A DNA stretch of 64,000 nt from Candidatus Micrarchaeota archaeon (GTDB lineage Archaea; Micrarchaeota; Micrarchaeia; Burarchaeales; JACRGF01), in NCBI GenBank assembly GCA_016212395.1, contig JACRGF010000007.1, positions 1,910 to 65,909 on the forward strand, in the 5' to 3' direction. Each line of letters begins with the position of its first letter. Positions within the stretch are counted from its first letter, which is position 1. A program made the translations under genes and the position numbers. Below the pieces are notes generated by a model, which did no database searches, was not told the origin of the DNA, and saw nothing but the letters and a program-made list of their open reading frames with translations. Positions 1,444 through 50,795 of this stretch are shown piece by piece.

Positions 1444-2391
1444 TTGTTAACAAACATTAAAAAGAGTTGGCTTGAGCCCTTGGAAATCGTTAAAAAACGT
1501 GCATTTCACAACTGGTTTATGGAACTTGAACTTTTGCGTGTTGCTGTTGCAGTGGCTGGTTGCGCCGCTGCAGCGTGTTACGACGTGTTCAACAAGAGGA
1601 ACGTGCCGAACAATTTGACGTACGTGTTTGTCGCGATGGGCGTTTTGCTGAACTTTTGGCAGTTTGATTTAACGGTTTTTGCAGGAACGGCGGCAGTAGC
1701 GCTGGTTGTGGGTGTTTTGAGTTATTTGTTTTACAGGACTGGGCAGATTGGGGGCGCGGACGTGCTGATGTTCGTGGGTCTTGCATTTTTGCTGCCGGAA
1801 ACACGCGCAGGGCTGCTGCAAGGCGGGCAGGCGCAGGCGTTGTTCACTCTCCCATTCATAGTGTCGTTGTTTGTTTCAAGCGGTTTTCTTTTCATGCTTG
1901 GAATAACATTGCAGTTCGTGCCGAAGGCAGTGAGGGCAGTTTTGCAAAAAAAATCAGGGGTAAAACCGGCGAACGCAGCATACGCGGCAATAGTGTTGGT
2001 TGCATACGCGGCGCTTGCTTACGTTGCTAACGGAATGGGTTTTTCTCCGTCGTATTTCGCAATAGTTGGAGTGCTCGTGTTTTGCTCTGCGTTCATCGTA
2101 ACGTTCAGGGAGTTGATAGTCAACTCTATGATTGAAAACGTTGGCTTGAAGGAAATCGAGGAGGAGGACGTGCTTGCAATAGAAAAGATGGACGCAAAAG
2201 TAGTAAAAAAATACAGGTTGCAGAAGCTCATAACGCTTGAACAGTTGAAGAGGTTGAAGGAAACGCGGCTCAAAAAGTTTCCTGTGTTCAAGCACATGCC
2301 TGCGTTTCTTCCGTTCCTGCTAGGAGGATTGATTCTCAGCTTGCTGATTGGCGACGTGCTCGCGTTCCTCACTCAACTCGCGCTCTCGTGA
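1444..2391 (+). CDS. A24-family prepilin/preflagellin peptidase (PibD/FlaK-like) with a C-terminal extension
   Basis: Polytopic membrane ORF with both catalytic Asp motifs: YDVFNKRNVPN and IGGADVLMF (GxGD-type). The true start may be the internal MELELL. Confidence 0.75.
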   Translation: MLTNIKKSWLEPLEIVKKRAFHNWFMELELLRVAVAVAGCAAAACYDVFNKRNVPNNLTYVFVAMGVLLNFWQFDLTVFAGTAAVALVVGVLSYLFYRTGQIGGADVLMFVGLAFLLPETRAGLLQGGQAQALFTLPFIVSLFVSSGFLFMLGITLQFVPKAVRAVLQKKSGVKPANAAYAAIVLVAYAALAYVANGMGFSPSYFAIVGVLVFCSAFIVTFRELIVNSMIENVGLKEIEEEDVLAIEKMDAKVVKKYRLQKLITLEQLKRLKETRLKKFPVFKHMPAFLPFLLGGLILSLLIGDVLAFLTQLALS

Positions 2392-2649
2392 GGAAAAAAA
2401 GTTCAGTGTTTTAGACAGTGACCAGAAGAGGAAGATAGACGCGACGATTACTACTCCTAACGCCAAGTCCCAGAACAGGTTTTCGCTTATTAGGAAAAGC
2501 TGGCCGTTCCACACGTGGTCAACAACGCCGAAAACCGCTCCGCCCGCCAGCATTAGCTCGAGGTTCTTGTCGGAACTCTTGTTCTTGCCTGCAAAGTGAA
2601 CGAACAAAAATGCGGCCAAGGAAACAGCGTAACAAACCATGAGAACCAC
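2320..2649 (-). CDS. Small membrane protein, hypothetical
   Basis: 109-aa ORF with about 3 hydrophobic helices. Its tail overlaps the 3' end of the peptidase gene by 72 nt (convergent). Confidence 0.4.
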   Translation of the reverse strand: MVLMVCYAVSLAAFLFVHFAGKNKSSDKNLELMLAGGAVFGVVDHVWNGQLFLISENLFWDLALGVVIVASIFLFWSLSKTLNFFSSRERELSEEREHVANQQAENQSS

Positions 2650-2775
2650 CCCGAAAATAGAGTGGCAGGAAAAAAATTAATAATGCTCGCTTCGCTTTGA
2701 ATAGCTTGGCTTGAAAAAACAAGGGTTAAATAGAGTGAAAACTCTATAAAAATAGTTGAAGGAATAGCGTGAGAG

Positions 2776-5595
2776 TTGTTTGAAATGTTTTTGTTTCAGT
2801 CAGTTGTAGAGGGAGCTCTTCAAGCAGCAGCAGACGCGCTTGCGAAAGGGAAAAAAAAGCGGAACTGGGTAACGATAGCCGAGACTGCTGAAAAAAAATT
2901 GTTGGCAGCTTTGCTCGCCAAGTTTGAGAAAGACAAGAGGCTGCCGAGGCTGAACGCGCAGGAAGCAAAAGCAGCACGCGAAGCATTGGAAACAGCACTC
3001 AAAAGTAAGAAATTTGGAGAGAAAGAATTGATGGGGATAGCGCGAACACTGCAGGCAAGTGTGCCAGGAATGGGTGGGGAACGCGCAGGAGAAATAATGA
3101 AGATAGTTGAAAAATACGCGGTTGGAACAGAGTACAGGACAGTGCAAATCAGGGAATTGATGATGCAGACACGCGCGATTGCGAAGAGAGCAGCACGCGT
3201 TCCTGAACTGTTCAGGCTTCCTCTGCCTGCACTTGAAGGGCAGGCGTTGAGAAAGGTGCTTGAAGGATACGAGAAGCCGGGAGCAGTGCGCAACGTGGCA
3301 GAAGAAGCGCGCGCGATGGCAATCAGGGCAGGGCGCGTTGGAGCGCAAAGCAGGCCAGTGCAAGTGGTGGCAACAGCAGCAGCACTGGTTGCAATTGCAT
3401 CAATGGGAGTAGAGGAGTGCGCGGAATTCGCATCTAAAGTGTATGCGGCGTTAGCACCGGAAAAACAGCGGGTAGTTCCAAAGTCTGCTTCTGAAGAAGA
3501 GAGAATGACTCACTTGACAGTCAGAGTGTACAATGCGAGATCAGAATTGGAAAAATTGAAAAAAAAAGCCAATGGCTTGGAAGCAGAAGCAAAGCAGGGT
3601 GATTTCAAAAAACTAGCAGGGCAGTTGCCTGAGCTTGAAGGGAAGACTGAAGCGCTCGTGGATGATGCGATGAGGCAGGTAGGCATGGTGACAGCAGATG
3701 AAATTGCGGAGAGAGTTGGAGAGATTGAAAGAGAATTGCACACTCTGGAAAAACAAGTCGAAGCGTTGGAGAAAGACGCGGAATTCCGGCGCCCCATGGC
3801 AGAAGTCGTGAGTTCAGGAGCAGAGATTGCAGCTCAAACTCCTCCGAAGCCAATTACAGTGGAAGCCACTGTTTATGATATGGAGACGGCACGGCAGAGG
3901 TTTGCAAGCCTGCGCGGAGGAACAATCACGCGAGACGCGTACTTGGAAAGGCTTCACCGCTCGAGCGAAGGAAATTATTGCAGTGAATTCGTTTCAAATG
4001 TTTTTGACGTTGTGTACGGACCTGGAGCAAGCGTCGCGCTTGGAATACGCGGGAAAGACGCGTGGCAGATTGATGATGAAGTCAAAGTGCATGGAGGCTA
4101 TGTGCTGCCTGCTGCTACTCCGCTAGAAAAAATTCCTGAAGGCGCGATAGTAAGATTTAGAGTTCAAGGAAGCAGGTACCAGGGAGAAGCTGGAGACGAA
4201 CCGACGCACGCAGGCGTTTATTTAGGCGGAGGAAAATTTGTGCATATGGTTGGGGCGAACGTTAGGATAGAAAGATTGGAAGATTTTTTAGCAGAAGGAG
4301 GGCACATGAAGCTTGCGGACATTGTCGTCCCGCCGAAAGAAGTTATTCCTGAAACTCATAGGGAAACGCGCGTAGTCGTGAGGACTTTAAAGAAAGGGGA
4401 ATCTTTGCTGGCGCTAGTTACTGGAATGGCGAGGGAAGGAATTATTGAAAGGGAACAGGTCGCTTTTTACATGTCGCAAGCATGGAGGCACAACGAAGCA
4501 GTGCTTGCAAGAAAGAGAAATGGGGACGTTCAGTTGTCGTTTGAAGTGCCTGAAGATTTGAAGCAAGCAGTAGCCAAAATAGAGGGTACTCAGCCGTGGG
4601 TTTTAGATTATGAAACGCCTGCTTTCGAAACTCCGAAGCCATATACAGTGACAGTGGACAGGCGCAGTGACCCGAAAGAAAAAAGAACTCCTGAAAACCA
4701 AGTCGAGTTGGAGGTAAGTGAAGAAACTGCACAAGCGATACTCGAGTTGAATGCAGCAACTGACTTTGAAAAACACGTTCTCTTGGCGATAGCGACAAAA
4801 GAAAGAGGAGGAGGAGGCGCACGCGCTATAGCAAAAGAAGCTATGGACACAGTTCAAGATGTTGTTGGAAGCCACGCGCTCGTTCACAGGTACGGAGCGT
4901 TTCAAATAGATTACAGGGTTGCGATGGAGTATTGCCGAGAGGTTGAAAAAAAGAACGTTACTGAGGCTGAAGCTGAAGAGATATTGAGGGATGTTAACGC
5001 GTCTGCAAAAATAGCATTGTGGAATTTGAGGAACGGAGAACGGATTTTGTGGGTGATTGGAAAGCGTACAGGGGAAACTCTTTCTGAAGAACAGTCAGTG
5101 GTTGCGCTTGCAGTGTTCCATAACGGCGGGCTTGGTGGCGTGATTGGAGTAATGCAGCAAGTGGCGTTGCGAGAAATATCTGAAAAAATGGACGAGCGAG
5201 GAGAAAAAGCGTTTGAAGTCCATGCAGATATTGCAGAGGGGGAAGACTTGACTGCGAATGGCTACTTGCCCGTATTGGGAACAGCAGGCAAGAGCAATGG
5301 AGAACTTGCAGCCGGTTTGTTGTGGCTCGCAAGCGGGCGCAAAGGCCCTTCCAAAAGCCCTGGCGCTCCGGCGTTTAGAAAAGCCAGTGATGCACAAGAA
5401 GAGATGCTGATTGTTATAATATCGAAAGAAGATGAAGAAGCAGTTTTCCGGGAAACTGAAGCCGAATTTTCAAAGAGAGGGCGTAGCAGGACAGATTTTT
5501 TCACAACGCGAGCTTACGGAGTAATGGACAGGCTGCACTTGCACTACTGCGGAACAAGAATGAGCATGCCGACAGAAGAGGAACTGATGCAATAA
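2776..5595 (+). CDS. Large multidomain cell-wall-hydrolase-like protein: coiled-coil N-region, NlpC/P60, LysM-like segment, SLT (GH23)-like domain
   Basis: 939-aa ORF. NlpC/P60 signature: NYCSEFVSNVF (Cys about 402) ... EGAIVRF ... THAGVYLGGGKFVHM (His about 478). SLT-like pattern: LLAIATKERGG (Glu about 676) ... RYGAFQIDY ... DVNASAKIALWNLRNG ... AVFHNGGLGGV. The ATG at 2785 is a likely alternative start. Confidence 0.7.
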   Translation: MFEMFLFQSVVEGALQAAADALAKGKKKRNWVTIAETAEKKLLAALLAKFEKDKRLPRLNAQEAKAAREALETALKSKKFGEKELMGIARTLQASVPGMGGERAGEIMKIVEKYAVGTEYRTVQIRELMMQTRAIAKRAARVPELFRLPLPALEGQALRKVLEGYEKPGAVRNVAEEARAMAIRAGRVGAQSRPVQVVATAAALVAIASMGVEECAEFASKVYAALAPEKQRVVPKSASEEERMTHLTVRVYNARSELEKLKKKANGLEAEAKQGDFKKLAGQLPELEGKTEALVDDAMRQVGMVTADEIAERVGEIERELHTLEKQVEALEKDAEFRRPMAEVVSSGAEIAAQTPPKPITVEATVYDMETARQRFASLRGGTITRDAYLERLHRSSEGNYCSEFVSNVFDVVYGPGASVALGIRGKDAWQIDDEVKVHGGYVLPAATPLEKIPEGAIVRFRVQGSRYQGEAGDEPTHAGVYLGGGKFVHMVGANVRIERLEDFLAEGGHMKLADIVVPPKEVIPETHRETRVVVRTLKKGESLLALVTGMAREGIIEREQVAFYMSQAWRHNEAVLARKRNGDVQLSFEVPEDLKQAVAKIEGTQPWVLDYETPAFETPKPYTVTVDRRSDPKEKRTPENQVELEVSEETAQAILELNAATDFEKHVLLAIATKERGGGGARAIAKEAMDTVQDVVGSHALVHRYGAFQIDYRVAMEYCREVEKKNVTEAEAEEILRDVNASAKIALWNLRNGERILWVIGKRTGETLSEEQSVVALAVFHNGGLGGVIGVMQQVALREISEKMDERGEKAFEVHADIAEGEDLTANGYLPVLGTAGKSNGELAAGLLWLASGRKGPSKSPGAPAFRKASDAQEEMLIVIISKEDEEAVFRETEAEFSKRGRSRTDFFTTRAYGVMDRLHLHYCGTRMSMPTEEELMQ

Positions 5596-5762: not shown

Positions 5763-5934
5763 TGCTCCCACCGGGATTTGAATTCCCGAACCATGATAAC
5801 GAAAAAGCCTTTTTTTCTTTCTTTTTTCGTTAACGTTTTTTCTTTCTTTTTCAGCGGGAAAAAGAAAGAAAAAAGGTTACCCGGGTCGCTGCCTCGAAAG
5901 GGCAGAATCCTTGACCGGGCTAGACGATAGGAGC
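5763..5934 (-). tRNA. tRNA-Glu (anticodon UUC) with a 97-nt intron (5783-5879) between positions 53 and 54
   Basis: Minus-strand read: GCTCCTA TC GTCT AGCCCGGTCAA GGAT T CTGCC CTTTCGA GGCAG CGAC CCGGG [intron] TTCAAAT CCCGG TGGGAGC A. The acceptor stem pairs 7/7 (one G-U) and the T stem is CCGGG/CCCGG. The joined exons total 75 nt. Confidence 0.75.
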
Positions 5935-24276: not shown

Positions 24277-25563
24277 TTACTCTAAACACGCGAGAATCGT
24301 GCATTCCCATCCTTCTTCTTCTCCTTTGCAAATGTCCCTGACGCAGTTTTCGTCGAACGCGCTCACTGTCCCAGCGAATGGTGCAACGTCGTAATCGCAT
24401 TCGTCTATCTGCCTGTATGAAGCTTCAACTCCTGGCGTGGCTACTACTTGCACTGGGTTGCCTTCCGCGTCTGTCCGCGTTTCAGTCACTTCGACAACCT
24501 CTGCTACAAAGCATTTTTCCAGCCACAAGTTCACGTCGTCAGGGTTTAGTTTCCTGTCGTTGTTCAAGTCGTACTCGCACGGGTTTGGCTCGCAAATTCT
24601 TTCCGGCACTCTGCCCGTGCCTCCTCCGTCATCATAACAAACTCCTCCTGATTGGCAGCATTGCACGCTTCCAGACGCGCCCCAGCTGAAGCCCGGAGCA
24701 CAGCAGCCGTTCGTGCAGCCTCCTGACCTCCCGCTGCATCCTCTGCCTGCTGCAACGCATGCTGCGGGTGCAGTTCCCTCAACGCACACGCCGTTCACAG
24801 CGCAACAGCCTTCCCCGCCGTTCGCATCACAATCCCAAGTGCCTTCATCACAATCCTGCTCGCAGCATGCTCTTCCATTAATGCAGACTACTCTCGCGCA
24901 CTCTCCGAAAGAGCGCCCGCTCGCGTCCCTGCACGCAAAATCATTCGCGCCTACCGTGCTTTCCTTCCACGTCAAGCAAGCAGGGCAAGCTTGAACGCAC
25001 TGGCCTCCTGAATCTTTACAGCATTCTCTTCCACTATCCCACGTTAGCCCTTCCCCGCAACAGCCTCCCCATTCTCTGCAAGCTGCTGCGCCAGCATCGC
25101 ACGCGCGTTGTTCAGGGCAGAAGGCTATGCACGCTCCGTTTTCCACGCAGCACTTTTCAGCATCACTCCACGTTCCGCGCGGACAGCACCCGCTCGCAGG
25201 GCAGTACTCTTCTGCTGCAGGGCATTCCCCCGTCCTGCACAATCTCCCTGAATTAACGCATTCCCTCCCGCCGTCGATGTTCCTGCAGCAATCATTTATG
25301 CTGCTGTCCCACTCGTAACCCGAAGGGCAAGAGCACGCGCTTTCAATTCCTCCTTCTCGTTGCGCTTCAGCGCTGCAACACCCGCAACTGCTCGCGCTAA
25401 CGTCGCATTCCACTGTTCCAGCCCCGCATTTTTCAGGCTTTCCAGTAGTCGCGCACATTGTTGCAATCAACGCGAGGAGAATAATGCCTCCTACTATAAT
25501 GCCGAGTTTTTCTCCTGCTTGGCTAATGTCAAAGTCTCCTTTCAGAAAACGTTTTTCTTTCAT
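24277..25563 (-). CDS. Extremely Cys-rich surface protein (N-terminal TM anchor, CC-x-G-x-W-x-CC repeats, dockerin/EF-hand-like loop)
   Basis: 428-aa ORF with the anchor LGIIVGGIILLALIATM. Repeats include GCCPRGTWSDAEKCCVENGAC, GCCGEGLTWDSGRECCKDSGGQC and GCCAPGFSWGASGSVQCCQSGGVC. There is a Ca-loop-like DLNNDRKLNPDD. Confidence 0.6.
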   Translation of the reverse strand: MKEKRFLKGDFDISQAGEKLGIIVGGIILLALIATMCATTGKPEKCGAGTVECDVSASSCGCCSAEAQREGGIESACSCPSGYEWDSSINDCCRNIDGGRECVNSGRLCRTGECPAAEEYCPASGCCPRGTWSDAEKCCVENGACIAFCPEQRACDAGAAACREWGGCCGEGLTWDSGRECCKDSGGQCVQACPACLTWKESTVGANDFACRDASGRSFGECARVVCINGRACCEQDCDEGTWDCDANGGEGCCAVNGVCVEGTAPAACVAAGRGCSGRSGGCTNGCCAPGFSWGASGSVQCCQSGGVCYDDGGGTGRVPERICEPNPCEYDLNNDRKLNPDDVNLWLEKCFVAEVVEVTETRTDAEGNPVQVVATPGVEASYRQIDECDYDVAPFAGTVSAFDENCVRDICKGEEEGWECTILACLE

Positions 25564-26474: not shown

Positions 26475-26567
26475 ATTAAGGCGCATTTCAATTCGCTCTC
26501 ATTAAACACACTTTTTTAAACGTTTTCTTCGACGTTATTGCGCTATTCGTTTTTGTTGGTGGTTTTT

Positions 26568-29492
26568 ATGAAAAAAGTTTTTTTGCGGAATGCGTGTTTA
26601 CTGCCTGTTTTTTTGTTGGCGTTAGCGTCTGTTGCCTTCGCGCAAGTGGGCCAGTGTTTTGACAACGACGAGGCGAACAGTGTTTATGTTAAAGGCGAGC
26701 TGGCGCTCTCAAGTTCTTTTGCAATAGACTACTACACGGACGCGTGCGTGAATGTTGGTTCAGTGCGCGAGTATTTTTGTTCAGGCTATACTTTTGAAAC
26801 TGTGGACAAGCCGTGCCCGTCTGGCTATTCTTGCTCGAGTGGCGCGTGCGTGAGCAGTGGAACGTCGTCCGGCTCGTCCAGTGCTTCTGCTTCATGCATT
26901 GATTCTGACTCTGGCCAGGACGTGAGCGTTAAAGGAATCACTGTTGGTTCTGGAAGCGCTTCTTCCGACTCGTGCATTGACGCTTCCTCTTTAACTGAAT
27001 ACTTTTGCATGGCTGTTGGTTCTACTTCTGTAAAAACAAGCATTACAAAAACGTGCCCTGCTGGCTCTGCGTGCTCTGACGGCGCGTGCGTTGAAACGTG
27101 CACTGATTCTGACGGGGGTACTGACATTGCAGTGAAAGGCACTACTATAACGGGAAGTGATTCTTCAACTGACTCTTGCGTTTCAGGTAAAGTGCGCGAG
27201 TATTACTGCGACATGCGAGCGTCGAGCGCTGGCGCGAAGCGTTCCGTTGACCGTTCGTGTTCTTCAGGGCAAGAGTGCAAAGACGGTGCGTGCGTTGCAG
27301 TGGAAACTGCCCCGGCTGCGCCAACGTGCAGGGATAGTGACAATGGTGAAGACATTTACACTTTCGGGACTGCGACGCGTTATTCTGCTGACGGGAGCGT
27401 GCTTGCTTCAGTGAGCGACCGTTGTTATTCTTCTGAAAAACTTTTTGAAGAAACGTGCCTTTCTGACGGCGCGTTGAACAGCGTTGACAAAACGTGCCCG
27501 TCCGGCTACGTGTGTGATGGAGGCGCTTGCATTGCGAGGGCGCAGTCAACAACTTGCCTTGAAACTGACGGTGGCGTGCAGGCTTACGTTAAGGGAAGCG
27601 TGACGCTTGGAAGCGAGGTGAAAACTGACTATTGCCCTGATGCTTCTACTATAATCGAGTACTACTGCACTTCAGTTGAAAACGGAAGAATAGAGTCCCG
27701 TCAGTATCCTGTTCCTTCAGGCTACTCGTGTGTTGACGGCGCATTTTCGCAGCAGTCTGGTTCTTCTGGCGGGACTGGCACTGAAACTCCTGCTGCTTCA
27801 ACTTCAACATGCAAAGACTCCGACAATGGAATAAACGTTTATACGCCTGGGCGAGTGGAAGCAAGCCTGTCCGTCGCGCGCGATTCGTGCGTCACTTCAA
27901 CAACTGTGAAAGAATATTATTGCAGGGACGGAAAACTCGATTCAATAGACTCGGAGTGCCCGAGCGGTTATTCGTGTGATGGTGGCGCTTGTGTTTCTTT
28001 AGGCACTTCAACACAGTCATCGTGCGTTGATTCTGAAAACGGAATTGACATCTACTCTTTCGGGACTGCCCGCGACGCTGCAACTACCGCCAGCGATTCG
28101 TGTGATGGGGAATTCACTGTGAGAGATTATTATTGTTATCAAGGGCAGATTGGTTTTGTAGTGCAAGATTGTCCTAGTGGTTATTCGTGCTCAAGTGGCG
28201 CGTGCGTTGCCCCGTCTTCAGGTTCTTCAAGCACTCCAACTGCAGAAACAGTTGCTTGCCGTGACTCTGATTCAGGCACGGACATTTACGTTGCTGGAAA
28301 GGTTTCTTACAAGAACGAAGTTTTTGCTGACGAGTGCGTTGACTCGAGCTTGCTGCGTGAATACTACTGTGATTCGCGGATGGTGAATCGAGGAGGTAGC
28401 GCTGTAATGAGGCGCGTTGATCGAAACTGTCCCGACGATTTCGTTTGCAGGGATGGCGCGTGCGTCAAGTTCGCCGAGCAAAAACCGAAGAGTGATTGCA
28501 GGGAGACTGACGGCGGTGACGACGTTTCAAAGAAAGGCACAAGTTGGTCGAGCAGCGAAAAAGGCGAGGATTATTGCTTGGGCGACGATTCGCTCATTGA
28601 ATACTTCTGCGCCAAGAGCGACTCCGGCGTTGCGGTGAGGAAGGACAAGCGCGGTTGCGAACGCGGTTTTGTTTGCAGGGATGGCGCGTGCGTTTCGCCT
28701 TCTGCTTCAGGAGAGCGTTCCTGCAAGGACAGTGACGGCGGTTACGTTAAAGAATTGAAGGGAGAAACCATCGTATACAATTCCGACCAAACTATTGTGG
28801 AGCGCAAGGAAGACTATTGTTATTCCGAAAGCCAAGTAGTCGAATACTTCTGTGAGAAAGATTCAGTAAAGGCAAAGCACGAGGCGTGCTTAGACGGTTA
28901 TTCGTGTGTTGACGGCGCGTGCGTTTCTTCTTCAACCACTCCACAATCTGCAACTGGTTCAACTGCAACGCCTGCCCCAACTCCATCAACCTCGACAGCA
29001 ACAACTGCAACAGTGCCTCCTATTGCCGCCACTCTTTTCACTGCCCGCTTGGCTGCTGGCTGGAACATGTTCAGCGTTCCGTTCGACAGCGTGAGCGTTG
29101 ACTCTGACTGCGAAAACTTTGCTGCAGAGCGAGCGTGGACTTACGATGCAGTGCAAAAGAATTACGTTCGGCCTTCTTCGTTCGAGCCAGGGCAAGGCTA
29201 CTGGTTCAAGGCAACAAGCGCGTGTTCAGTGAAAATTGCTGGAAGGAAAACTTTTGAAATGAGTGGCAAAAAGCTTCGCGCTGGCTGGAACCAGATTGGC
29301 TCGCAGTCCCGCAACATTAACATCAGGGAGTTGATGGGCGACTGCGTGTTGTTGAAAGGCCCGTGGCAGTGGAATGAAGAGTCCCAAAAATGGCAGAAAG
29401 CTGCCGAGATGCAGCCTGGCGAAGCGTACTTCGTGAAAGTCGAAAGCGAGTGCACGCTCGGAGGGAGCGAGATTCCTCCGCTTCCCGAATAA
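26568..29492 (+). CDS. Secreted surface protein with ten ~70-80-aa six-Cys repeats, a Thr/Pro/Ser linker and a C-terminal beta-rich domain
   Basis: Signal peptide MKKVFLRNACLLPVFLLALASVAFAQ. Repeat consensus: C-x-DSD-x-G-x-D...KG...D-x-C...EY(Y/F)C...CPSGYxCxxGACV, ten copies. The tail contains LAAGWNMFSVPF...GQGYWFKA...LRAGWNQIGS. Confidence 0.75.
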   Translation: MKKVFLRNACLLPVFLLALASVAFAQVGQCFDNDEANSVYVKGELALSSSFAIDYYTDACVNVGSVREYFCSGYTFETVDKPCPSGYSCSSGACVSSGTSSGSSSASASCIDSDSGQDVSVKGITVGSGSASSDSCIDASSLTEYFCMAVGSTSVKTSITKTCPAGSACSDGACVETCTDSDGGTDIAVKGTTITGSDSSTDSCVSGKVREYYCDMRASSAGAKRSVDRSCSSGQECKDGACVAVETAPAAPTCRDSDNGEDIYTFGTATRYSADGSVLASVSDRCYSSEKLFEETCLSDGALNSVDKTCPSGYVCDGGACIARAQSTTCLETDGGVQAYVKGSVTLGSEVKTDYCPDASTIIEYYCTSVENGRIESRQYPVPSGYSCVDGAFSQQSGSSGGTGTETPAASTSTCKDSDNGINVYTPGRVEASLSVARDSCVTSTTVKEYYCRDGKLDSIDSECPSGYSCDGGACVSLGTSTQSSCVDSENGIDIYSFGTARDAATTASDSCDGEFTVRDYYCYQGQIGFVVQDCPSGYSCSSGACVAPSSGSSSTPTAETVACRDSDSGTDIYVAGKVSYKNEVFADECVDSSLLREYYCDSRMVNRGGSAVMRRVDRNCPDDFVCRDGACVKFAEQKPKSDCRETDGGDDVSKKGTSWSSSEKGEDYCLGDDSLIEYFCAKSDSGVAVRKDKRGCERGFVCRDGACVSPSASGERSCKDSDGGYVKELKGETIVYNSDQTIVERKEDYCYSESQVVEYFCEKDSVKAKHEACLDGYSCVDGACVSSSTTPQSATGSTATPAPTPSTSTATTATVPPIAATLFTARLAAGWNMFSVPFDSVSVDSDCENFAAERAWTYDAVQKNYVRPSSFEPGQGYWFKATSACSVKIAGRKTFEMSGKKLRAGWNQIGSQSRNINIRELMGDCVLLKGPWQWNEESQKWQKAAEMQPGEAYFVKVESECTLGGSEIPPLPE

Positions 29493-35108: not shown

Positions 35109-38100
35109 CTACCATCCGCCGAGCGTTGCTTGTTTTCCCAGTCCTTTCAACTCGTGCTCGTCCACTCCTAATTCGCTTAGTATTTTCATTACTGACGGGA
35201 GAATTTGGTTTTCAATGTAGTAATTCGGGTCGTAGTCTTTCGCTAATTCCACTACTATTGACCTGTCGCTCACTCGTTCTCCTCCGCTTTTTCCAACAAC
35301 GTAGTCTATTACTGCTCCTTCTTCTATTCGAATTCCTTTTTCTTTCGCCCTGATTGCTGCAGTTACTTCAGGGCTTAGAATTTCATACTTTCCAATCTTC
35401 TTTCTCAACTGCGTGTGTATTACCAGCTTCTCGAGAGGCACTTTCCCTTCCTTCAATTCTTTAATCACTTTCTTGACTATCTCGACTGCTTTTTCCTTGC
35501 TTCCTTTTTTCAGGATGCTTTCAAGCACTGCCGACTGCGTTTCTTTCGCTAAGTCGCTCCAGTCCCTGCGCACCAGTTCGAAACCGCGGATTTTTATTTT
35601 CCCGTCCTCGCGCAACAGCGCATATTTCTTTTTAGCGCCTTTCTCCCCGTCCCCGCTCGCTCCAGTCTTTTTCCCCACAAACACTCCGCGCGGGTAGAAT
35701 GCTTCCAGCTCCAGCTCCATTCCCTTCGGCAGTTCAGCGTTCACTTTCCGCATGAACTCTAACGCTTGCTCGCGTGTTTTTTTTCCCAATTGCAAGAATA
35801 CAGAATCAGTATTATGAAGCAGGATTTGCCCGCACGAGTCAACGAAATTGTGCGTGCCTTCGACGTTCAAGTCATAAACAAAACCATCGTACTCTTGTTC
35901 TTCGATTTGTGCATGCAGTTTGGGAGTGTGTTTCGAGCAAGTGGTGATAATATACGTCTGCTTATCTTGCCTAAACCTCATCGAATATTTTTTTCCAAGC
36001 ATTGGCAGCAGCAGCGTGAGCCCGCAAGCGAGTTGAAGCGATTTTGTTTCCAGCGTGAAGTTGTTTTGCTTGTATTCTTCAGTGTAGCGTGGGTCTTTAG
36101 TGATCGAGCCGTCGCCTTTGAGAAAGTTTTCCAAAATTATTTTCCGGTATTTTTCAGGAACATGAAAAGCAAATCCAGGAAGCTTTTTTCCAGAGCTTTT
36201 CTGCCCGCACAACTGCTTGAAGAAAACCGCTGAAAGCGCGTTCATCATCTGCAGTTTTAGCGTCTTGTCCACGTAAGTCACGCTATTCTTTTTTCCCTTC
36301 ATCGTAGTGTAATTAAGTTGCCTTTGTTTTTTCATTGATTGGATTATGCTTGCCTTCACGTTTGAAAAAAGTGAGTGGTAATCCTTCTTGAGCTGTTCCA
36401 GCCACGCTTTGTCACTTGCAGAAATGCTTGCGCCTAGCCTGCTCGTTGTAGTTTCCGGAGTGGAAGCGCTTCCTTCTGCAATGTAAGCGCCGAGAAGCCT
36501 GCAAAGCGCTTCAAATTCCTTGCTCTCAACTTGGATAAACCGCTTTAGCAGCACTGTGGATTTTTTTCGCATCCAGCCGAAAAACACATGTTCTCCATTC
36601 GGAGTGAGCTGGACTCTGCGCGTTTTGCTTCTATTCTTGTAAACAAATGCATTCTCATATCGTTTAAGCAATTCATAGAAATCTATTTTCTGCATTTGTT
36701 TGAGGGGTGGAATTCGTTCGACTCGCACCATCGCGTTTTCAAGCATTTCTCGAGGTTTTGCTTCGACGAGCTGATTATTTTTTTCTATCATAAACGAGTG
36801 GTCTTCAGTTACCCTCGTTTCCCCGTATTTCTGGCTGACTTTGAAAACCCGCTTGTTCGCCTTGTGCCTAATCGCTTCTTTTACGTTTCCCCACGTTGTT
36901 TTGCCAGTCAGCTGGTCAACGCCAAGCGCTTTAAATCCTTTCAAGCTTGCAACTTCTTTTTCTCCGACTTTTTCAGAGCGCTCGGAATTTTCTTCAAACA
37001 ATTCGCTTATCCTCTTGATTTCAACCATTCCTTGCGGGTTGAGCAGCGTCACGAACCTGTCGCCAGTTACGCTATCCCCATACGTTACCTCAAACCCTTC
37101 TTTCCCTGCTTTTTCAATCACGTCATTAATATAATGCCTGCCCCACGCTGTAATCGCTTCCCCGCACTCGCGCGAGTACCACCTGGCGCGCGCGAAGCGG
37201 AACATTCCGTACACGGAGTTTGAAAGAATTTTCAACGCTTGAGAGCGCGCTTCAAGCATCTTCAATTTCCCTTCGTCCTTGCATTCTCTTATTTCTCCCT
37301 TCAGTTTTTTTCTCCTCTCAACCAACTCCTCGAGCGTGTTTGGAATCAATCCTTTCTTTTTCGAGCAGAACGCGTGCCCGTTCGGCGAAACGAACGCTTC
37401 CTTTTTCGAACAGCACGAGCAATTGAGCGTCGCGTTATCCACGTTGTGCGACGTGATGATTGAAGGGTACAGCGATCGGAAGTCGAACACTGCCAAATTC
37501 TCGTAAATTCCAGGCGTAGGCATTTTCACGAACGCTCCTTCAATTACTGCATCCCTTCTCCCTTCAGCCTCGTCGCCTCCGGGCTTGTTCGGCGCAATCA
37601 TTCCCGCATTGTGCGCCTTGTTTAGCAAAAGCATTTCAACAAGCTGTCCGCTCGTCATTCCCGCCACATCAAACAAAGGAAGCTTCACCAACTTGCACAA
37701 CTCGTACTGTAAAGGCATGATTTTCAACGCGATTTCGCGCGTTGCCTGCGCGTCTTTCAGCGAATACTCCGCTAATTTCGGCAGTTGCTTTTCGTCGTCC
37801 CACATGCGCCAAATCTCGCGTTTTTCCACTTCCTCCTTCCACCCTTCCTTTTCTCCTGCAACCAACTCCGAGTACGCTTCCCCGAGCGTGTACCTGAAGC
37901 CCTTCAACGCTCCTATCATTCCCATAAACCGAATGACGGGGTACAAGTCAACGTGAATCCTCCCCGTAATCTTTGCCGTATTCACCATTCCTCTTCTTCT
38001 CAAAAGAATTCCGCTCCCATCTCTTCCAAAGCTCAAGCTTTTTCCAAGCGCTTTCGCTCGCGCCTTCAAGTAAGAAAAGTCAAACGCTGCTGAATTATAG

Positions 38101-38801
38101 CCCACAAGCAACTCAACGTCTTTTTCTTTCAACAGCCTGCAAAACTCTGCAAGCATCGCCTTCTCGTCCGCAAGAATTTTCACGAACTTCCGTGCGATGG
38201 GCTTCCACGAGAGCACTCCGCTCTCCTCGTCGGCAAAACTCACCATCACCACTGGGTCTATATTCTCGCGTGGCATTCCGCTCGGGTTGTACGTTTCAAT
38301 GTCAAAAGACATCAAGCGAAGGCTTGGAACAACTTCCTTCTCCTCTCCAATGCTCACGACGTTCTTTCCTTTTCTCTTTACTTCATACTCGTTGAACGGC
38401 GTGAGCTTTTTGTCAATCAAGTACCTTCTTCCGAACAAAATGTTGTCTTCATACGTTGCGCCGAACTCGCGCGCCTTCTCGCGCAAAAGCACGACGTGCG
38501 AAGGGTGCACGCACACTGCCCGCAGAACTTTCTTTTTCTCTCCAAGCAACTCCTTTTCAACTTCCTCTATCCTCTCAAACTTCACTTCATTTCCCTGGTT
38601 GTCCTTCACGCTTATTTTTTCAAGCTCTTTCCTCGCGTGCTCTAGTTCTCCCTTCTTGTTCACGTCAACAAAAAAATAGGGCTCGAACTTCTCGTCGTAG
38701 AGCCTGAAGAAACGCTTGCGCTTGAACACTAACCTAATCACTGCCCTTCCTGCCTTCGTAATGTAATCTGCATCAATAAGCATTGCCCGCAAGCTCTTCA
38801 T
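35109..38801 (-). CDS. polB: Family B DNA polymerase (intein-containing precursor, 1230 aa; extein about 809 aa)
   Basis: Exo I FDIETYN, Pol A DFRSLYPSII and Pol B KILSNSVYG are present. Pol C is split as YGD | intein | TDSVF. There is a C-terminal PIP-like KQATLGGW. Confidence 0.95.
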   Translation of the reverse strand: MKSLRAMLIDADYITKAGRAVIRLVFKRKRFFRLYDEKFEPYFFVDVNKKGELEHARKELEKISVKDNQGNEVKFERIEEVEKELLGEKKKVLRAVCVHPSHVVLLREKAREFGATYEDNILFGRRYLIDKKLTPFNEYEVKRKGKNVVSIGEEKEVVPSLRLMSFDIETYNPSGMPRENIDPVVMVSFADEESGVLSWKPIARKFVKILADEKAMLAEFCRLLKEKDVELLVGYNSAAFDFSYLKARAKALGKSLSFGRDGSGILLRRRGMVNTAKITGRIHVDLYPVIRFMGMIGALKGFRYTLGEAYSELVAGEKEGWKEEVEKREIWRMWDDEKQLPKLAEYSLKDAQATREIALKIMPLQYELCKLVKLPLFDVAGMTSGQLVEMLLLNKAHNAGMIAPNKPGGDEAEGRRDAVIEGAFVKMPTPGIYENLAVFDFRSLYPSIITSHNVDNATLNCSCCSKKEAFVSPNGHAFCSKKKGLIPNTLEELVERRKKLKGEIRECKDEGKLKMLEARSQALKILSNSVYGMFRFARARWYSRECGEAITAWGRHYINDVIEKAGKEGFEVTYGDSVTGDRFVTLLNPQGMVEIKRISELFEENSERSEKVGEKEVASLKGFKALGVDQLTGKTTWGNVKEAIRHKANKRVFKVSQKYGETRVTEDHSFMIEKNNQLVEAKPREMLENAMVRVERIPPLKQMQKIDFYELLKRYENAFVYKNRSKTRRVQLTPNGEHVFFGWMRKKSTVLLKRFIQVESKEFEALCRLLGAYIAEGSASTPETTTSRLGASISASDKAWLEQLKKDYHSLFSNVKASIIQSMKKQRQLNYTTMKGKKNSVTYVDKTLKLQMMNALSAVFFKQLCGQKSSGKKLPGFAFHVPEKYRKIILENFLKGDGSITKDPRYTEEYKQNNFTLETKSLQLACGLTLLLPMLGKKYSMRFRQDKQTYIITTCSKHTPKLHAQIEEQEYDGFVYDLNVEGTHNFVDSCGQILLHNTDSVFLQLGKKTREQALEFMRKVNAELPKGMELELEAFYPRGVFVGKKTGASGDGEKGAKKKYALLREDGKIKIRGFELVRRDWSDLAKETQSAVLESILKKGSKEKAVEIVKKVIKELKEGKVPLEKLVIHTQLRKKIGKYEILSPEVTAAIRAKEKGIRIEEGAVIDYVVGKSGGERVSDRSIVVELAKDYDPNYYIENQILPSVMKILSELGVDEHELKGLGKQATLGGW
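35811..37073 (-). mobile_element. Intein (421 aa) with a LAGLIDADG homing-endonuclease domain, inserted in polymerase motif C
   Basis: It begins with Ser (SVTGDRFVTLL) directly after YGD and ends LLHN, followed by a +1 Thr (TDSVF). Internal motifs LLGAYIAEGSAS and ENFLKGDGS are present. Confidence 0.85.
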
Positions 38802-49018: not shown

Positions 49019-49167
49019 CGGGCCCGACGGGAGTTTCAGGGTTTAGAAGTTTTGATGTTTTGCAGTTTCGCTTGTTTTGAAAATTCTGCCTGAACTTCTA
49101 AACTCTTTCGAACCCGCGACTTCTTGGTCCGAAGCCAAGCGCTCTATCCAAGCTGAGCTACGGGCCC
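49019..49167 (-). tRNA. tRNA-Arg (anticodon UCG) with a 74-nt intron (49033-49106) between positions 59 and 60
   Basis: Minus-strand read: GGGCCCG TA GCTC AGCTTGGATA GAGC G CTTGG CTTCGGA CCAAG AAGTC GCGGG TTCGAA [intron] T CCCGT CGGGCCC G. The acceptor stem is a perfect 7 bp. The intron ends pair as GTTTAGAAGTT/AACTTCTAAAC (11 bp). Confidence 0.75.
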
Positions 49168-49552: not shown

Positions 49553-49773
49553 GTTTTTTCTCGTTCAGTTTTGTGTGTTGTCCTGTTTTTTTCTTTTTTT
49601 CTCTACACTTTTTTTCTGTTTTGTTCTTTTTGTCGTTTTTTTTTCTGCGCGTGTTTTTTCTGTTTTGTTCGTTTTTTTTAGGGTTTTTTCTTTTTTTCTG
49701 TTTGTTTCTCTTTTTTCCTGCGTTCAGCAAGTTTTTTATACGGTTGAACGCTTATTCTTTCGGGAGGTTGTTC

Positions 49774-50652: not shown

Positions 50653-50795
50653 AGGCAGAGAAAAAACGTAAAACGCGTTGTTCACGCGTGAATTGTTTTG
50701 GAGTTTTGTGGTTTTGTAGTGTCGTGGTTTTTTGTGTGAATTCGAAACTTCGAAACTGCAAAACTCGAAACTTGCAATTGTTTTGGCTGGTGTTC

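What the first reader, a model, noticed from the sequence alone, without database searches (positions are those of the whole stretch)
2776..5595. CwlT/PrgK-like bifunctional cell-wall hydrolase (NlpC/P60 + LysM-like + SLT-like) in an archaeon, beside tRNA-Glu and an A24 peptidase
The 939-aa protein carries an NlpC/P60 Cys/His signature: NYCSEF ... THAGVYLGGGKFVHM. After a LysM-like segment it carries a lytic-transglycosylase-like pattern: KERGG ... YGAFQI ... NASAKIALWNL ... FHNGGLGG. This domain pairing is the hallmark of the peptidoglycan hydrolases that serve Gram-positive conjugative T4SSs (CwlT of ICEBs1, PrgK, TcpG). Archaea lack murein, so the target would be a bacterial partner or prey, pseudomurein, or something new. 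There is no signal peptide, only one internal hydrophobic helix, and a long coiled-coil N-region. Together with the VirB4 module about 45 kb away, this suggests a dispersed secretion or contact apparatus.
Basis: partly seen in the sequence, partly recalled or inferred. Interest (0 to 1): 0.75.

Follow-up and report, generated by a model that had tools for sequence, protein, structure and literature searches.

The report
Divergent NlpC/P60 hydrolase, Micrarchaeota archaeon
A 936/939-residue orphan protein of a tiny symbiotic (DPANN, Micrarchaeota) archaeon carries a real but very divergent bacterial-type cell-wall peptidase domain, while the claimed sugar-cutting domain is only weakly supported and the LysM domain and link to a conjugation machine are not supported.

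Summary
The protein is identical to NCBI MBI5158652.1, a hypothetical protein of a Candidatus Micrarchaeota MAG. Residues ~385-510 are a genuine NlpC/P60 (C40) cysteine-peptidase domain. Pfam misses it (14.9 bits against a cutoff of 23). A six-member family profile matches E. coli MepS/MepH/NlpC/YafL with 95% hhalign probability (E 2.4e-8), aligning Cys402, His478 and His490 to the MepS Cys and His motifs. An AF2 model (pLDDT 72) hits NlpC/P60 structures almost exclusively. The only relatives among 1.8 billion representative proteins are five DPANN archaeal proteins, some of them giant signal-peptide-bearing murein hydrolases. The SLT-like C-terminal region has no Pfam, PDB or hhalign support and an unusable fold model. 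Its ordered motifs are rare by chance, and a shuffle-calibrated HMM test gives p ~0.001-0.005, so it stays possible but unproven. The LysM-like segment is indistinguishable from noise. The gene sits among housekeeping genes, not in a T4SS cluster, so the CwlT/PrgK analogy fails on context. Best reading: a lineage-specific surface wall-peptide hydrolase aimed at a neighbouring cell. It is a new variant of a known kind, of moderate interest.

The parts
2776..5595 (+). Whole gene: 939 aa from TTG 2776. It more likely starts at ATG 2785 (936 aa), which makes it identical to NCBI MBI5158652.1, a hypothetical protein of a Candidatus Micrarchaeota archaeon.
2745..2752 (+). TATAAAAA, an archaeal TATA-box-like element ~33-40 nt upstream of ATG 2785. 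It implies a very short or absent leader (inference only).
   Evidence: read from sequence
2776..3354 (+). Residues 1-193: Ala/Lys/Arg-rich region with net charge +14 and no family match. Proposed to be the cytoplasmic part (inference).
3355..3411 (+). Residues 194-212, PVQVVATAAALVAIASMGV: the most hydrophobic 19-residue window by Kyte-Doolittle (mean 1.84); a second stretch inside the C-terminal domain (775-793) is comparable on the insertion-energy scale. It is Ala-rich and only a marginal membrane-anchor candidate (apparent insertion energy +4.5 for 19 residues, +2.6 for 17, against about -0.9 to +0.1 for the neighbouring A24 peptidase helices).
3460..3810 (+). Residues ~229-345: acidic, coiled-coil-like stretch. 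It has sub-threshold hits to FlaC_arch, XhlA, bZIP_2, DUF2730 and the SMC-related ASRP, and heptad periodicity with p ~0.05. Proposed to be a stalk.
3847..4335 (+). Residues 358-520: divergent NlpC/P60 (C40) papain-like cysteine-peptidase domain; the catalytic core is ~385-510.
3979..3981 (+). Codon of Cys402, the predicted nucleophile. It is invariant in the six-member family, aligns to the Cys of the MepS 'DCSGF' motif, and sits at the N-terminus of a helix in the model.
4207..4209 (+). Codon of His478, the predicted general base. It is kept in 5 of 6 family members and aligns to the His of MepS 'RHVGIY'.
4243..4245 (+). Codon of His490, the predicted third triad residue. It is His in 5 of 6 members and Gln in one, and aligns to the His of MepS 'FVHA'.
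4348..4605 (+). It has no LysM signal and is best treated as a linker or small domain of unknown fold. The relative P0005 has a true LysM at the equivalent position.
4720..5238 (+). Residues 649-821: region predicted to be all-alpha, carrying E676-R, G707-AFQI, D739-VNASAKIALWNL and H782-NGG. It is possibly a degenerate family-1 lytic-transglycosylase/DUF1615-like domain, but this is unproven.
4801..4803 (+). Codon of Glu676, the candidate catalytic acid of the putative lysozyme-like domain. It aligns to the SLT 'ES' Glu in the HMM alignment but is followed by Arg, not Ser.
5239..5592 (+). Residues 822-939: C-terminal tail with no match to anything.
5763..5934 (-). Context only: tRNA-Glu(UUC) with a ~97-nt intron (about 5782-5878) between the T-stem and T-loop.
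1444..2391 (+). Context only: Peptidase_A24 (prepilin/preflagellin peptidase family) membrane protein. There is no evidence of a functional link.

Best explanation
The gene encodes a lineage-specific, multidomain cell-wall hydrolase of a Candidatus Micrarchaeota (DPANN) archaeon. Shown: residues ~385-510 form a divergent but catalytically complete NlpC/P60 (MEROPS C40) cysteine peptidase with the triad Cys402-His478-His490. It belongs to a tiny subfamily found so far only in DPANN archaea. In other members the same module sits inside signal-peptide-bearing giant proteins, together with Amidase_3, polysaccharide deacetylase, LysM and DUF1615 (SLT-like) domains. Inferred: like its nearest characterised structural relatives (YkfC, Acd24020, Trichomonas NlpC and MepS-type DL-endopeptidases), it cleaves a gamma-glutamyl/diamino-acid-type bond in a wall peptide stem. 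An archaeon has no murein of its own, so the target is the wall of a neighbouring cell, most likely bacterial peptidoglycan, during attachment, feeding or antagonism. Also inferred: the basic N-terminal 193 residues stay in the cytoplasm, the hydrophobic helix 194-212 acts as an N-in/C-out anchor, and the acidic coiled-coil-like stretch forms a stalk that presents the enzyme outside the cell. The all-alpha region 649-821 may be a degenerate lytic-transglycosylase-like partner domain that opens or binds glycan strands. This last step is the weakest.
For: NlpC/P60: Pfam gives a sub-threshold hit on the His motif, and PHROG 329 'minor tail protein' matches residues 387-504. Exhaustive phmmer finds five relatives, all aligned over residues ~366-535. 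In the family alignment C402 is invariant and H478 and H490 are each kept in 5 of 6 members. The family profile's best PDB matches are all C40 peptidases, best E 1.8e-4. The AF2 model has pLDDT 72 and pTM 0.72, with the Cys at a helix N-terminus and both His on adjacent strands. Foldseek against PDB returns NlpC/P60 structures for 19 of the top 20 hits, and BFVD returns phage NlpC/P60 proteins. hhalign against four E. coli paralogues gives 95.3% probability and E 2.4e-8 with all three triad residues aligned. Relatives are archaeal and extracytoplasmic. P0005 is labelled a Pacearchaeota DUF1615 protein. P0003 has a signal peptide plus Amidase_3, Polysacc_deac_2 and DUF1615, and lies beside Hef, PCNA and RNase J. 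P0006 lies in the archaeal RNAP/EF cluster. Published work reports large extracellular murein-hydrolase proteins in Pacearchaeota and Woesearchaeota (PMC8204110) and bactericidal archaeal PG hydrolases, only 32% of which have a recognised signal peptide (PMC12352652). Topology: net charge is +14 before the helix and -27 after it. SLT-like signal: the ordered motif pair occurs in 5 of 200,000 shuffles, and in 364,000 aa of background ORFs it otherwise occurs only in true LT domains. In the HMM shuffle tests the region ranks 7th to 27th of 5,001, with a co-linear alignment of all four motifs, while other segments of the protein are null. The gene looks native: GC 0.49 and codon-usage r 0.85.
Against: There is no recognisable signal peptide, and the hydrophobic helix is Ala-rich and marginal as a membrane anchor, so export is not established. 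The C-terminal domain has no Pfam or PDB hit even at E<=10. hhalign against DUF1615 and against SLT domains is non-significant. Its SLT HMM score (4 bits) is far below that of genuine DUF1615 domains (15.6-16.6 bits) and does not stand out among the window's 304 ORFs. The motif-I Ser is Arg, and the single-sequence AF2 model is unusable (pLDDT 41). Known Micrarchaeota hosts are wall-less or S-layer archaea (own knowledge), so a peptidoglycan target would be unexpected. There are no orthologues, so conservation under selection cannot be assessed. The substrate is inferred only from fold relatives, and NlpC/P60 enzymes also include non-wall amidases and acyltransferases.
Confidence: 0.55

Rival explanations
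1. One reading: a CwlT/PrgK/TcpG-like bifunctional hydrolase that opens the wall for a conjugative type IV secretion system, working with the VirB4-like module 45 kb away as a dispersed apparatus.
For: An NlpC/P60 domain is present, with possibly a second, lysozyme-like domain. Tn916-type T4SS hydrolases (9ubf, 4hpe) appear among the weaker profile and fold hits. A TraG P-loop/AAA_10/DUF87 ATPase operon exists at 49573-55408.
Against: The gene is embedded in housekeeping genes: sufS/nifU upstream, then the A24 peptidase, tRNA-Glu, tmk, pyrBI and FBPase. About 45 kb of unrelated genes separate it from the ATPase. No relative has a T4SS context. The nearest structural and profile matches are YkfC, Acd24020, Trichomonas NlpC and MepS, not the T4SS hydrolases. 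The domain order is the reverse of CwlT. An archaeal conjugation-like system would have no murein of its own to cross.
Confidence: 0.05
2. An intracellular papain-like amidase, peptidase or acyltransferase acting on a non-wall substrate, for example a gamma-glutamyl or isopeptide-linked protein, metabolite or lipid. In this reading the helical N-terminal half is a scaffold, and the C-terminal region is unrelated to lysozymes.
For: There is no signal peptide and the membrane helix is marginal. The C-terminal and LysM-like regions lack significant matches. The NlpC/P60 superfamily includes cytoplasmic enzymes such as the LRAT/H-RAS-like and glutathionylspermidine-amidase/CHAP types (own knowledge).
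Against: Every detectable relative of this subfamily is archaeal, and several are clearly extracytoplasmic murein-hydrolase fusions. The best fold and profile matches are wall DL-endopeptidases. The charge asymmetry across the helix fits N-in/C-out. The SLT-type motif pattern is unlikely by chance.
Confidence: 0.22
3. The same enzyme architecture, but aimed at an archaeal host envelope. The target would be pseudomurein isopeptide bonds of Methanobacteriales or Methanopyrales, or another glutamyl-containing archaeal wall polymer, rather than bacterial murein.
For: DPANN archaea with known hosts parasitise archaea (own knowledge). The only single-sequence PDB hit was a pseudomurein endoisopeptidase, 8z4f, E 0.0012. 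Papain-like Cys peptidases (PeiW/PeiP) do cut pseudomurein (own knowledge).
Against: The 8z4f alignment runs across the NlpC/P60 beta-sheet core and the following linker, and looks compositional (EP..GGG..PP..PE). It does not reappear with the family profile, whose hits are all murein C40 enzymes. Relatives are fused to murein-specific modules: Amidase_3, LysM and SLT-like DUF1615.
Confidence: 0.12
4. A domesticated or remnant virion-associated lysin, of the tape-measure or tail-lysin type (long helical region, internal hydrophobic segment, no signal peptide, C-terminal hydrolase domains), inserted next to a tRNA gene.
For: There is a PHROG 'minor tail protein' hit, and BFVD fold hits include tail lysins and Tip attachment protein J. 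The gene is adjacent to a tRNA. The architecture resembles tape-measure proteins that carry lysin motifs (own knowledge).
Against: No other viral genes, integrase or att repeats lie nearby. GC content and codon usage are native. The closest sequence relatives are cellular DPANN proteins, not phage proteins.
Confidence: 0.04

Closest known systems
NlpC/P60 (MEROPS C40, Pfam PF00877) DL-endopeptidases: E. coli MepS/Spr, MepH, NlpC and YafL; YkfC-type dipeptidyl-peptidase VI (3npf, 3pvq); C. difficile Acd24020 (7cfl); Trichomonas NlpC1/2 (6bim, 6biq)
   Same: It has a papain-like alpha+beta fold in the non-permuted order Cys, then His, then His. The motifs 'C-S-x-F' and 'H-x-G-(I/V)-Y-L-G-x-G-x-x-(I/V)-H' are present. 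The His-to-His spacing of 12 residues equals that of MepS. hhalign gives 95% probability, and the Foldseek top hits are these proteins.
   Different: It falls below the Pfam gathering score (14.9 bits against 23). About 75 residues separate the Cys from the His, including a subfamily-specific 'G.G.S..LG..GKDAW' segment. It is embedded in the middle of a 939-aa protein with no signal peptide or lipobox, and the host is an archaeon.
Giant extracellular murein-hydrolase proteins of Pacearchaeota and Woesearchaeota (fam00969 of Castelle et al. 2021, PMC8204110; e.g. MBL7059057.1 'DUF1615 family protein', P0005/P0011; and P0003)
   Same: These are the only detectable sequence relatives of the peptidase domain (27-36% identity, E 2e-5 to 7e-4 against 1.8 billion representative proteins). 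The module order is the same: peptidase domain, then a short domain (LysM in P0005), then a lysozyme-like region. All come from DPANN-type archaeal genomes.
   Different: Those proteins have N-terminal signal peptides, Pfam-significant LysM and DUF1615 domains, and extra Amidase_3 and deacetylase modules. Ours has none of these at significance. Instead it has a 350-residue basic and coiled-coil N-terminal half, and it comes from Micrarchaeota, a phylum where such proteins were reported as mostly absent.
CwlT (ICEBs1), PrgK (pCF10), TcpG (pCW3) and Tn916 Orf14-type T4SS-associated hydrolases
   Same: They combine an NlpC/P60 or CHAP peptidase with a glycan-cleaving domain in one polypeptide (own knowledge). 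Tn916-type structures 9ubf and 4hpe are among the weaker hits.
   Different: Our gene is not encoded in a conjugation cluster. The domain order is reversed relative to CwlT. The second catalytic domain is unproven, there is no N-terminal signal or anchor of the usual type, and the host is archaeal.
Family-1 lytic transglycosylases (Slt70, MltC, MltD, EmtA, MltF; Pfam SLT PF01464) and DUF1615 (PF07759)
   Same: Four co-linear motifs have compatible spacing: LLAIATKE676R against ..AI..ES, G707AFQI against GLMQ(I/V), D739..N....A..NL against motif III, and FH782NGG against AYN.G. The region is predicted all-alpha, with E676 at a helix C-terminus.
   Different: Every motif is degenerate: E-R instead of E-S, F instead of M, H instead of Y. 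No significant profile or hhalign match exists. The HMM score of 4 bits compares with 15.6-16.6 for DUF1615. No fold model is available.
Modular archaeal peptidoglycan hydrolases that kill bacteria (Woldo and Danwoldo of Halogranum salarium; Strock et al. 2025, PMC12352652)
   Same: These are archaeal proteins with a bacterial-type PG-hydrolase catalytic domain and a presumed extracellular anti-bacterial role. Many also lack a recognised signal peptide.
   Different: They have different catalytic families and hosts (haloarchaea), and were found by Pfam-significant catalytic plus binding domains. Our protein would be invisible to that screen.
Pseudomurein endoisopeptidases PeiW/PeiP (MEROPS C71; PDB 8z4f)
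   Same: They are papain-like Cys peptidases acting on an archaeal wall peptide. There is a single weak sequence hit, E 0.0012.
   Different: The hit falls on the Pei N-terminal repeat region, not its catalytic domain. It overlaps our NlpC/P60 core and is not reproduced by the family profile.

Membership tests
NlpC/P60 (Pfam PF00877, MEROPS C40) | Match to the curated family HMM at or above the gathering score | tested here: not met
   PF00877 gives E 0.027 and 14.9 bits against a cutoff of 23, covering only residues 473-502. None of the five relatives reaches E 0.01 either.
NlpC/P60 (Pfam PF00877, MEROPS C40) | Statistically supported homology to bona fide members (profile-profile or profile-sequence) | tested here: met
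   hhalign of family alignment A1 against MepS, MepH, NlpC and YafL gives probability 95.3%, E 2.4e-8, over 83 columns. The A1 profile against PDB returns C40 enzymes as its top hits, best E 1.8e-4.
NlpC/P60 (Pfam PF00877, MEROPS C40) | Catalytic Cys in a 'C-S-G/x-F'-type motif at the N-terminus of a helix | tested here: met
   C402 (NYCSEF) aligns to the Cys of MepS 'DCSGF'. It is invariant in 6 of 6 family members. Model helix 45-57 starts at residue 45, which is C402.
NlpC/P60 (Pfam PF00877, MEROPS C40) | Catalytic His plus a third polar residue (His/Asn/Gln/Glu) on adjacent beta-strands, about 12 residues apart | tested here: met
   H478 aligns to the His of MepS 'RHVGIY' and H490 to the His of 'FVHA'. 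Each is kept in 5 of 6 members. They lie on strands 121-127 and 130-135 of the model. Triad distances could not be measured because no coordinates are exposed.
NlpC/P60 (Pfam PF00877, MEROPS C40) | Papain-like alpha+beta fold | tested here: met
   The AF2 model has pLDDT 72.2 and pTM 0.72. In Foldseek against PDB, 19 of the top 20 hits are NlpC/P60 structures (best E 4.5e-3, probability 1.0, TM-score 0.55 normalised to the target). BFVD top hits are NlpC/P60 proteins. The E-values are modest.
NlpC/P60 (Pfam PF00877, MEROPS C40) | Hydrolysis of a wall peptide stem (e.g. the gamma-D-Glu-mDAP bond) | not testable with these tools
   This requires enzyme assays.
Family-1 lytic transglycosylase / GH23 (Pfam SLT PF01464) or DUF1615 (PF07759) | Significant match to the family HMM | tested here: not met
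   No SLT, DUF1615 or other lysozyme-clan hit appears for residues 640-825 even at E<=10, and no PDB sequence hit. hhalign against DUF1615 gives E 0.59. hhalign against five E. coli SLT domains is no better than shuffles.
Family-1 lytic transglycosylase / GH23 (Pfam SLT PF01464) or DUF1615 (PF07759) | Four co-linear signature motifs (E-S; G-L-M-Q; motif III; A-Y-N-x-G) | tested here: inconclusive
   Degenerate versions of all four are present in order. The motif pair occurs in 5 of 200,000 shuffles. In the HMM shuffle tests the region ranks 7th, 20th and 27th of 5,001, with all four motifs aligned. The score is only 4-7 bits, against 15.6-16.6 for true DUF1615. I widened the regex after the fact to admit F and H.
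Family-1 lytic transglycosylase / GH23 (Pfam SLT PF01464) or DUF1615 (PF07759) | Catalytic Glu followed by Ser (or Thr) at the end of a helix | tested here: not met
   E676 is followed by Arg677. The low-confidence model ends helix 663-676 at E676. Conservation cannot be tested because the region has no homologues.
Family-1 lytic transglycosylase / GH23 (Pfam SLT PF01464) or DUF1615 (PF07759) | Lysozyme-like alpha-helical fold with an active-site cleft | tested here: inconclusive
   The single-sequence AF2 model of residues 525-835 has pLDDT 41.2 and pTM 0.22. It is predicted all-alpha, but the fold cannot be interpreted.
LysM (Pfam PF01476) | Match to the LysM HMM or motif (Y.V..GDTL..IA ... 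N ... L..GQ.L.IP) | tested here: not met
   There is no Pfam hit at E<=10 for residues 520-649. Against a LysM HMM built from MltD and P0005/P0011, the segment ranks 865th of 5,003, p ~0.17.
CwlT/PrgK/TcpG-type T4SS-associated wall hydrolase | Encoded within the conjugation/T4SS gene cluster of a mobile element | tested here: not met
   The neighbours are sufS/nifU, an HTH protein, the A24 peptidase, tRNA-Glu, tmk, pyrB, pyrI and FBPase. The TraG/VirB4-like ATPase lies at 50649-53519, ~45 kb away. Codon usage is native.
CwlT/PrgK/TcpG-type T4SS-associated wall hydrolase | Two active peptidoglycan-hydrolase domains (a glycosidase plus a peptidase) | tested here: inconclusive
   The peptidase domain is supported. 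The glycosidase domain is unproven.
CwlT/PrgK/TcpG-type T4SS-associated wall hydrolase | N-terminal signal peptide or membrane anchor placing the enzyme outside the membrane | tested here: inconclusive
   No N-terminal signal peptide is evident by inspection. The internal helix 194-212 is marginal as an anchor (+4.5 on a Hessa-type scale), although the charge bias fits N-in/C-out. No dedicated predictor was available.
Modular archaeal peptidoglycan hydrolase (definition of Strock et al. 2025) | A Pfam-significant PG-hydrolase catalytic domain plus a Pfam-significant PG-binding domain | tested here: not met
   No Pfam domain in the protein passes its threshold. The definition is taken from PMC12352652.

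The most novel reading that the evidence does not exclude
This Micrarchaeota lineage, a phylum whose known hosts are wall-less or S-layer archaea, displays a stalked, signal-peptide-less, dual-activity (peptidase plus degenerate transglycosylase) wall-breaching enzyme on its surface. It would use this enzyme to attach to or feed on murein- or pseudomurein-walled cells. That would point to a bacterial (or methanogen) host or prey and to a non-classical export route. The enzyme would represent a DPANN-specific NlpC/P60 subfamily that Pfam-based surveys do not see.
Probability: 0.2. Interest if true: 0.65.

Novelty: new variant of a known kind. Interest (0 to 1): 0.4.

Why it matters
Archaea lack murein, so a murein-type endopeptidase in a DPANN genome is a marker of interaction with other cells. 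Published surveys of archaeal peptidoglycan hydrolases rely on Pfam thresholds. This protein and its five relatives fall below those thresholds, so such enzymes may be under-counted in DPANN. Large murein-hydrolase proteins were reported for Pacearchaeota and Woesearchaeota as mostly absent elsewhere. This gene extends one of their modules to Micrarchaeota, in a different, orphan architecture. If the enzyme is active and exposed on the surface, it offers a concrete and cheap assay (recombinant domain on murein versus pseudomurein sacculi) for guessing the host or prey type of an uncultivated lineage. If it is intracellular, it is simply one more divergent papain-like hydrolase.

Tried and rejected
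(1) Word-indexed homologue searches with the whole protein, with the six-sequence profile and with the P0003 two-domain region returned nothing beyond the protein itself.

The scan with the protein found no relative. The FBPase marker scan gave only 60-68% identity to mixed bacterial and archaeal MAGs and could not place the organism. Taxonomy came instead from the exact-match cluster look-up.

(3) The pseudomurein endoisopeptidase hit (8z4f, E 0.0012) was rejected. It overlaps the NlpC/P60 core, looks compositional and does not recur with the family profile.

(4) Using DUF1615 relatives as an MSA for AF2 of the C-terminal half was rejected. It would be circular, and unforced MAFFT did not align the motifs consistently. 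The unbiased single-sequence run then failed (pLDDT 41).

(5) hhalign of the C-terminal region against DUF1615 and against E. coli SLT domains gave no signal.

(6) The LysM test failed.

(7) A search for paralogues or partner hydrolase domains in all 304 ORFs of the window found none.

(8) Recent horizontal transfer or a prophage origin was rejected on codon usage and context.

(9) Triad geometry could not be measured because model coordinates are not exposed.

Full report
**Observation.** The ORF is real: 2776-5595 on the + strand, 939 aa from a TTG. Two independent gene calls (Logan and NCBI) start nine bases later at ATG 2785 and give 936 aa. A TATAAAAA element lies at 2745-2752, ~33-40 nt upstream of that ATG.

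The upstream gene (1444-2391) is a Peptidase_A24 above Pfam's cutoff. The tRNA-Glu initially seemed absent, because ARAGORN and Rfam find nothing there. Reading the minus strand shows a tRNA-Glu(UUC) at 5934..5763, interrupted by a ~97-nt A/T-rich hairpin intron between the T-stem and T-loop. After in-silico excision ARAGORN calls tRNA-Glu(ttc).

**Organism.** The window carries archaeal hallmark genes: Nre, an intein-containing family B polymerase, class V FBP aldolase/phosphatase, NurA/HerA and PyrBI. The protein is identical to NCBI MBI5158652.1, 'hypothetical protein HY992_00880 [Candidatus Micrarchaeota archaeon]', on a 69.6-kb contig. No GTDB species representative encodes a relative, and a conserved marker gave no close genome.

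**The NlpC/P60 domain is real.**
- Pfam alone gives only a sub-threshold hit on the His motif (E 0.027, 14.9 bits against 23). PHROGs gives a weak 'minor tail protein' hit over residues 387-504.
- An exhaustive phmmer search of 1.84 billion representative proteins with residues 350-939 found just five relatives (E 2e-5 to 7e-4). All align to residues ~366-535.
- In the six-sequence alignment, Cys402 is invariant and His478 and His490 are each kept in five of six.
- The profile's best matches among PDB sequences are all C40 peptidases: YkfC-type dipeptidyl-peptidase VI, Trichomonas NlpC1/2, Acd24020, LytE, Spr/MepS and Tn916-type hydrolases. The best E-value is 1.8e-4.
- hhalign of the family against four E. 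coli paralogues fetched for the purpose (MepS, MepH, NlpC, YafL) gives 95.3% probability and E 2.4e-8. It aligns C402, H478 and H490 to the Cys of 'DCSGF' and the His residues of 'RHVGIY' and 'FVHA' in MepS. From my own knowledge, not checked here, these form the MepS catalytic triad.
- An AF2 model built on the six-sequence alignment has pLDDT 72 and pTM 0.72. It puts C402 at a helix N-terminus and the two His on adjacent strands.
- Foldseek returns NlpC/P60 structures for 19 of the top 20 PDB hits and phage NlpC/P60 proteins from BFVD. E-values are modest (none <=0.001).
- Coordinates are not exposed, so triad distances could not be measured.

**Who the relatives are.** P0005 is MBL7059057.1, 'DUF1615 family protein [Candidatus Pacearchaeota archaeon]'. 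Longer members of its cluster carry LysM and DUF1615. P0003 (1,702 aa) has a signal peptide plus Amidase_3, a polysaccharide deacetylase, the shared peptidase module and DUF1615. It lies beside Hef, PCNA and RNase J, which is an archaeal context. P0006 lies inside the archaeal RNA polymerase/S12/S7/EF-2/EF-1alpha cluster.

[quoted passage not shown] Bactericidal peptidoglycan hydrolases in archaea are now experimentally established, and only 32% of the predicted ones carry a recognised signal peptide (PMC12352652). The kind of enzyme is therefore known. What is new here is a Pfam-invisible subfamily and its presence in Micrarchaeota in a different architecture.

**The SLT-like domain is unproven.**
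- Residues 640-825 have no SLT, DUF1615 or other lysozyme-clan hit in Pfam even at E<=10, and none among PDB sequences.
- hhalign against the DPANN DUF1615 regions gives E 0.59.
- Against five E. coli SLT domains (fetched), hhalign does no better than shuffles.
- The single-sequence AF2 model of residues 525-835 is unusable (pLDDT 41). I avoided a DUF1615-based MSA because it would be circular and MAFFT did not align the motifs consistently.

Some evidence points the other way.
- The ordered pair G.[MF]Q[ILV] ... [YH]N[GAS]G occurs in 5 of 200,000 composition-preserving shuffles. In 364,000 aa of background ORFs it occurs only in Slt70, MltC, the DUF1615 of P0003 and this protein. I widened the pattern after the fact to admit F and H.
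- In hmmsearch --max against 5,000 shuffles, the region ranks 7th with an SLT+DUF1615 HMM and 20th to 27th with an E. coli-only HMM.
- The SLT+DUF1615 alignment is a single co-linear match that puts E676 on the catalytic Glu, GAFQI on GLMQ, D739...NL on motif III and FHNGG on AYNxG.
- Four other segments of the protein behave as null in the same test.

The calibration is sobering. Genuine DUF1615 domains score 15.6-16.6 bits against the E. coli-only HMM, and ours scores 4.1. As a whole ORF the protein does not stand out among the window's 304 ORFs. The motif-I Ser is Arg. I put the probability of a lysozyme-like fold at roughly one half, and of catalytic competence lower.

**LysM-like segment.** This is not supported. 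There is no Pfam hit, and the segment ranks 865th of 5,003 against a LysM HMM built from MltD and the relatives' verified LysM domains. The only argument left is positional: P0005 has a true LysM between its peptidase and DUF1615 modules.

**Context and the T4SS idea.** The gene is flanked by sufS/nifU, an HTH protein, the A24 peptidase, a small membrane ORF, tRNA-Glu, tmk, pyrB, pyrI and FBPase. The TraG P-loop/AAA_10/DUF87 ATPase operon (49573-55408) is ~45 kb away, with HerA, NurA, PolB, RtcA and others in between. No other wall-hydrolase domain occurs in the window. GC content (0.49) and codon usage (r 0.85) are native. The defining contextual feature of CwlT/PrgK/TcpG-type enzymes is therefore not met, and the domain order is the reverse of CwlT.

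**Mechanism proposed.**
- Shown: a complete Cys-His-His NlpC/P60 domain belonging to a DPANN-restricted subfamily whose other members are extracytoplasmic murein-hydrolase fusions.
- Inferred: it cleaves a gamma-glutamyl/diamino-acid-type bond in a foreign wall peptide.
- Inferred: the protein is N-in/C-out. Net charge is +14 before the helix 194-212 and -27 after it. The helix itself is Ala-rich and marginal as an anchor, at +4.5 on a Hessa-type scale, against about -0.9 to +0.1 for the A24 peptidase helices.
- Inferred: residues ~229-345 form a coiled-coil-like stalk. The evidence is weak: sub-threshold coiled-coil-type hits and heptad periodicity with p ~0.05.
- Speculative: the C-terminal all-alpha region is a degenerate glycan-binding or glycan-cleaving partner.

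The main rival is an intracellular papain-like amidase acting on a non-wall substrate. The lack of a signal peptide and the orphan C-terminus favour it. An archaeal (pseudomurein) target cannot be excluded, but the single weak PeiW/PeiP hit is not credible.

**Verdict.** The SLT-like call is a reasonable but unproven lead. The LysM and T4SS/CwlT interpretations are not supported. This is a new variant of a known kind: a divergent DPANN NlpC/P60 hydrolase in an orphan architecture, and the first indication of such a module in Micrarchaeota. Interest is moderate (0.4).

Noticed in passing
window 5763-5934 (-), intron about 5782-5878: tRNA-Glu(UUC) carries a ~97-nt A/T-rich hairpin-forming intron at a non-canonical position, between the T-stem and T-loop. 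ARAGORN and Rfam gathering thresholds miss the gene. Rfam's permissive scan reports only spurious Phe_leader and miRNA hairpin hits on the intron.
   Followed up: partly
window about 49020-49167 (-): The only tRNA that Rfam finds (59 nt, 34 bits) is the 5' part of a tRNA-Arg(UCG) that stops after the T-loop. The matching 3' end (CCCGTCGGGCCC) lies ~70 nt downstream. So this tRNA also has a long intron in the T-loop region, and both tRNAs in the window are interrupted there. It lies ~400 bp from the TraG/VirB4-like operon.
   Followed up: partly
window 49573-55408 (+): This is a three-gene operon with overlapping stops and starts. It encodes a 359-aa protein with no Pfam match, a 956-aa TraG P-loop/AAA_10/DUF87 (VirB4/HerA-like) ATPase, and a 630-aa protein with no Pfam match. 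It could be a DNA-transfer or uptake module next to a tRNA gene. No link to the hydrolase was found.
   Followed up: no
P0002-P0006 (loci L031, L032, L042, L043): This is a small DPANN-restricted subfamily of NlpC/P60-like domains with a characteristic 'G.G.S..LG..GKDAW' insert. None of its members reaches Pfam PF00877 at E 0.01. Pfam-based surveys of archaeal peptidoglycan hydrolases would therefore miss it.
   Followed up: partly
window 35109-38801 (-); L001 91-1611 (-): The family B DNA polymerase contains an intein. In the overlapping Logan contig, just upstream of the window start, the NifU-like scaffold protein carries a LAGLIDADG-type insertion.
   Followed up: no
window 26538-29492 (+), 41143-42666 (+), 46661-48385 (-), 24277-25563 (-), 38870-40252 (+): Several large ORFs (984, 507, 574, 428 and 460 aa) have no Pfam match at E<=0.001. 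Such orphans are typical of DPANN genomes and may repay the same profile and fold treatment.
   Followed up: no
protein residues 451-551 (window about 4126-4428): A single-sequence phmmer search against PDB gives a borderline hit (E 0.0012) to the N-terminal repeat region of a pseudomurein endoisopeptidase (8z4f). I judged it compositional, because it overlaps the NlpC/P60 core and disappears with the family profile. It is the only pointer to pseudomurein.
   Followed up: partly
window 2320-2649 (-): A 109-aa ORF (106 aa in the Logan call) with hydrophobic segments lies on the opposite strand between the A24 peptidase and the hydrolase gene, and overlaps the 3' end of the peptidase ORF. It has no family match.
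   Followed up: no
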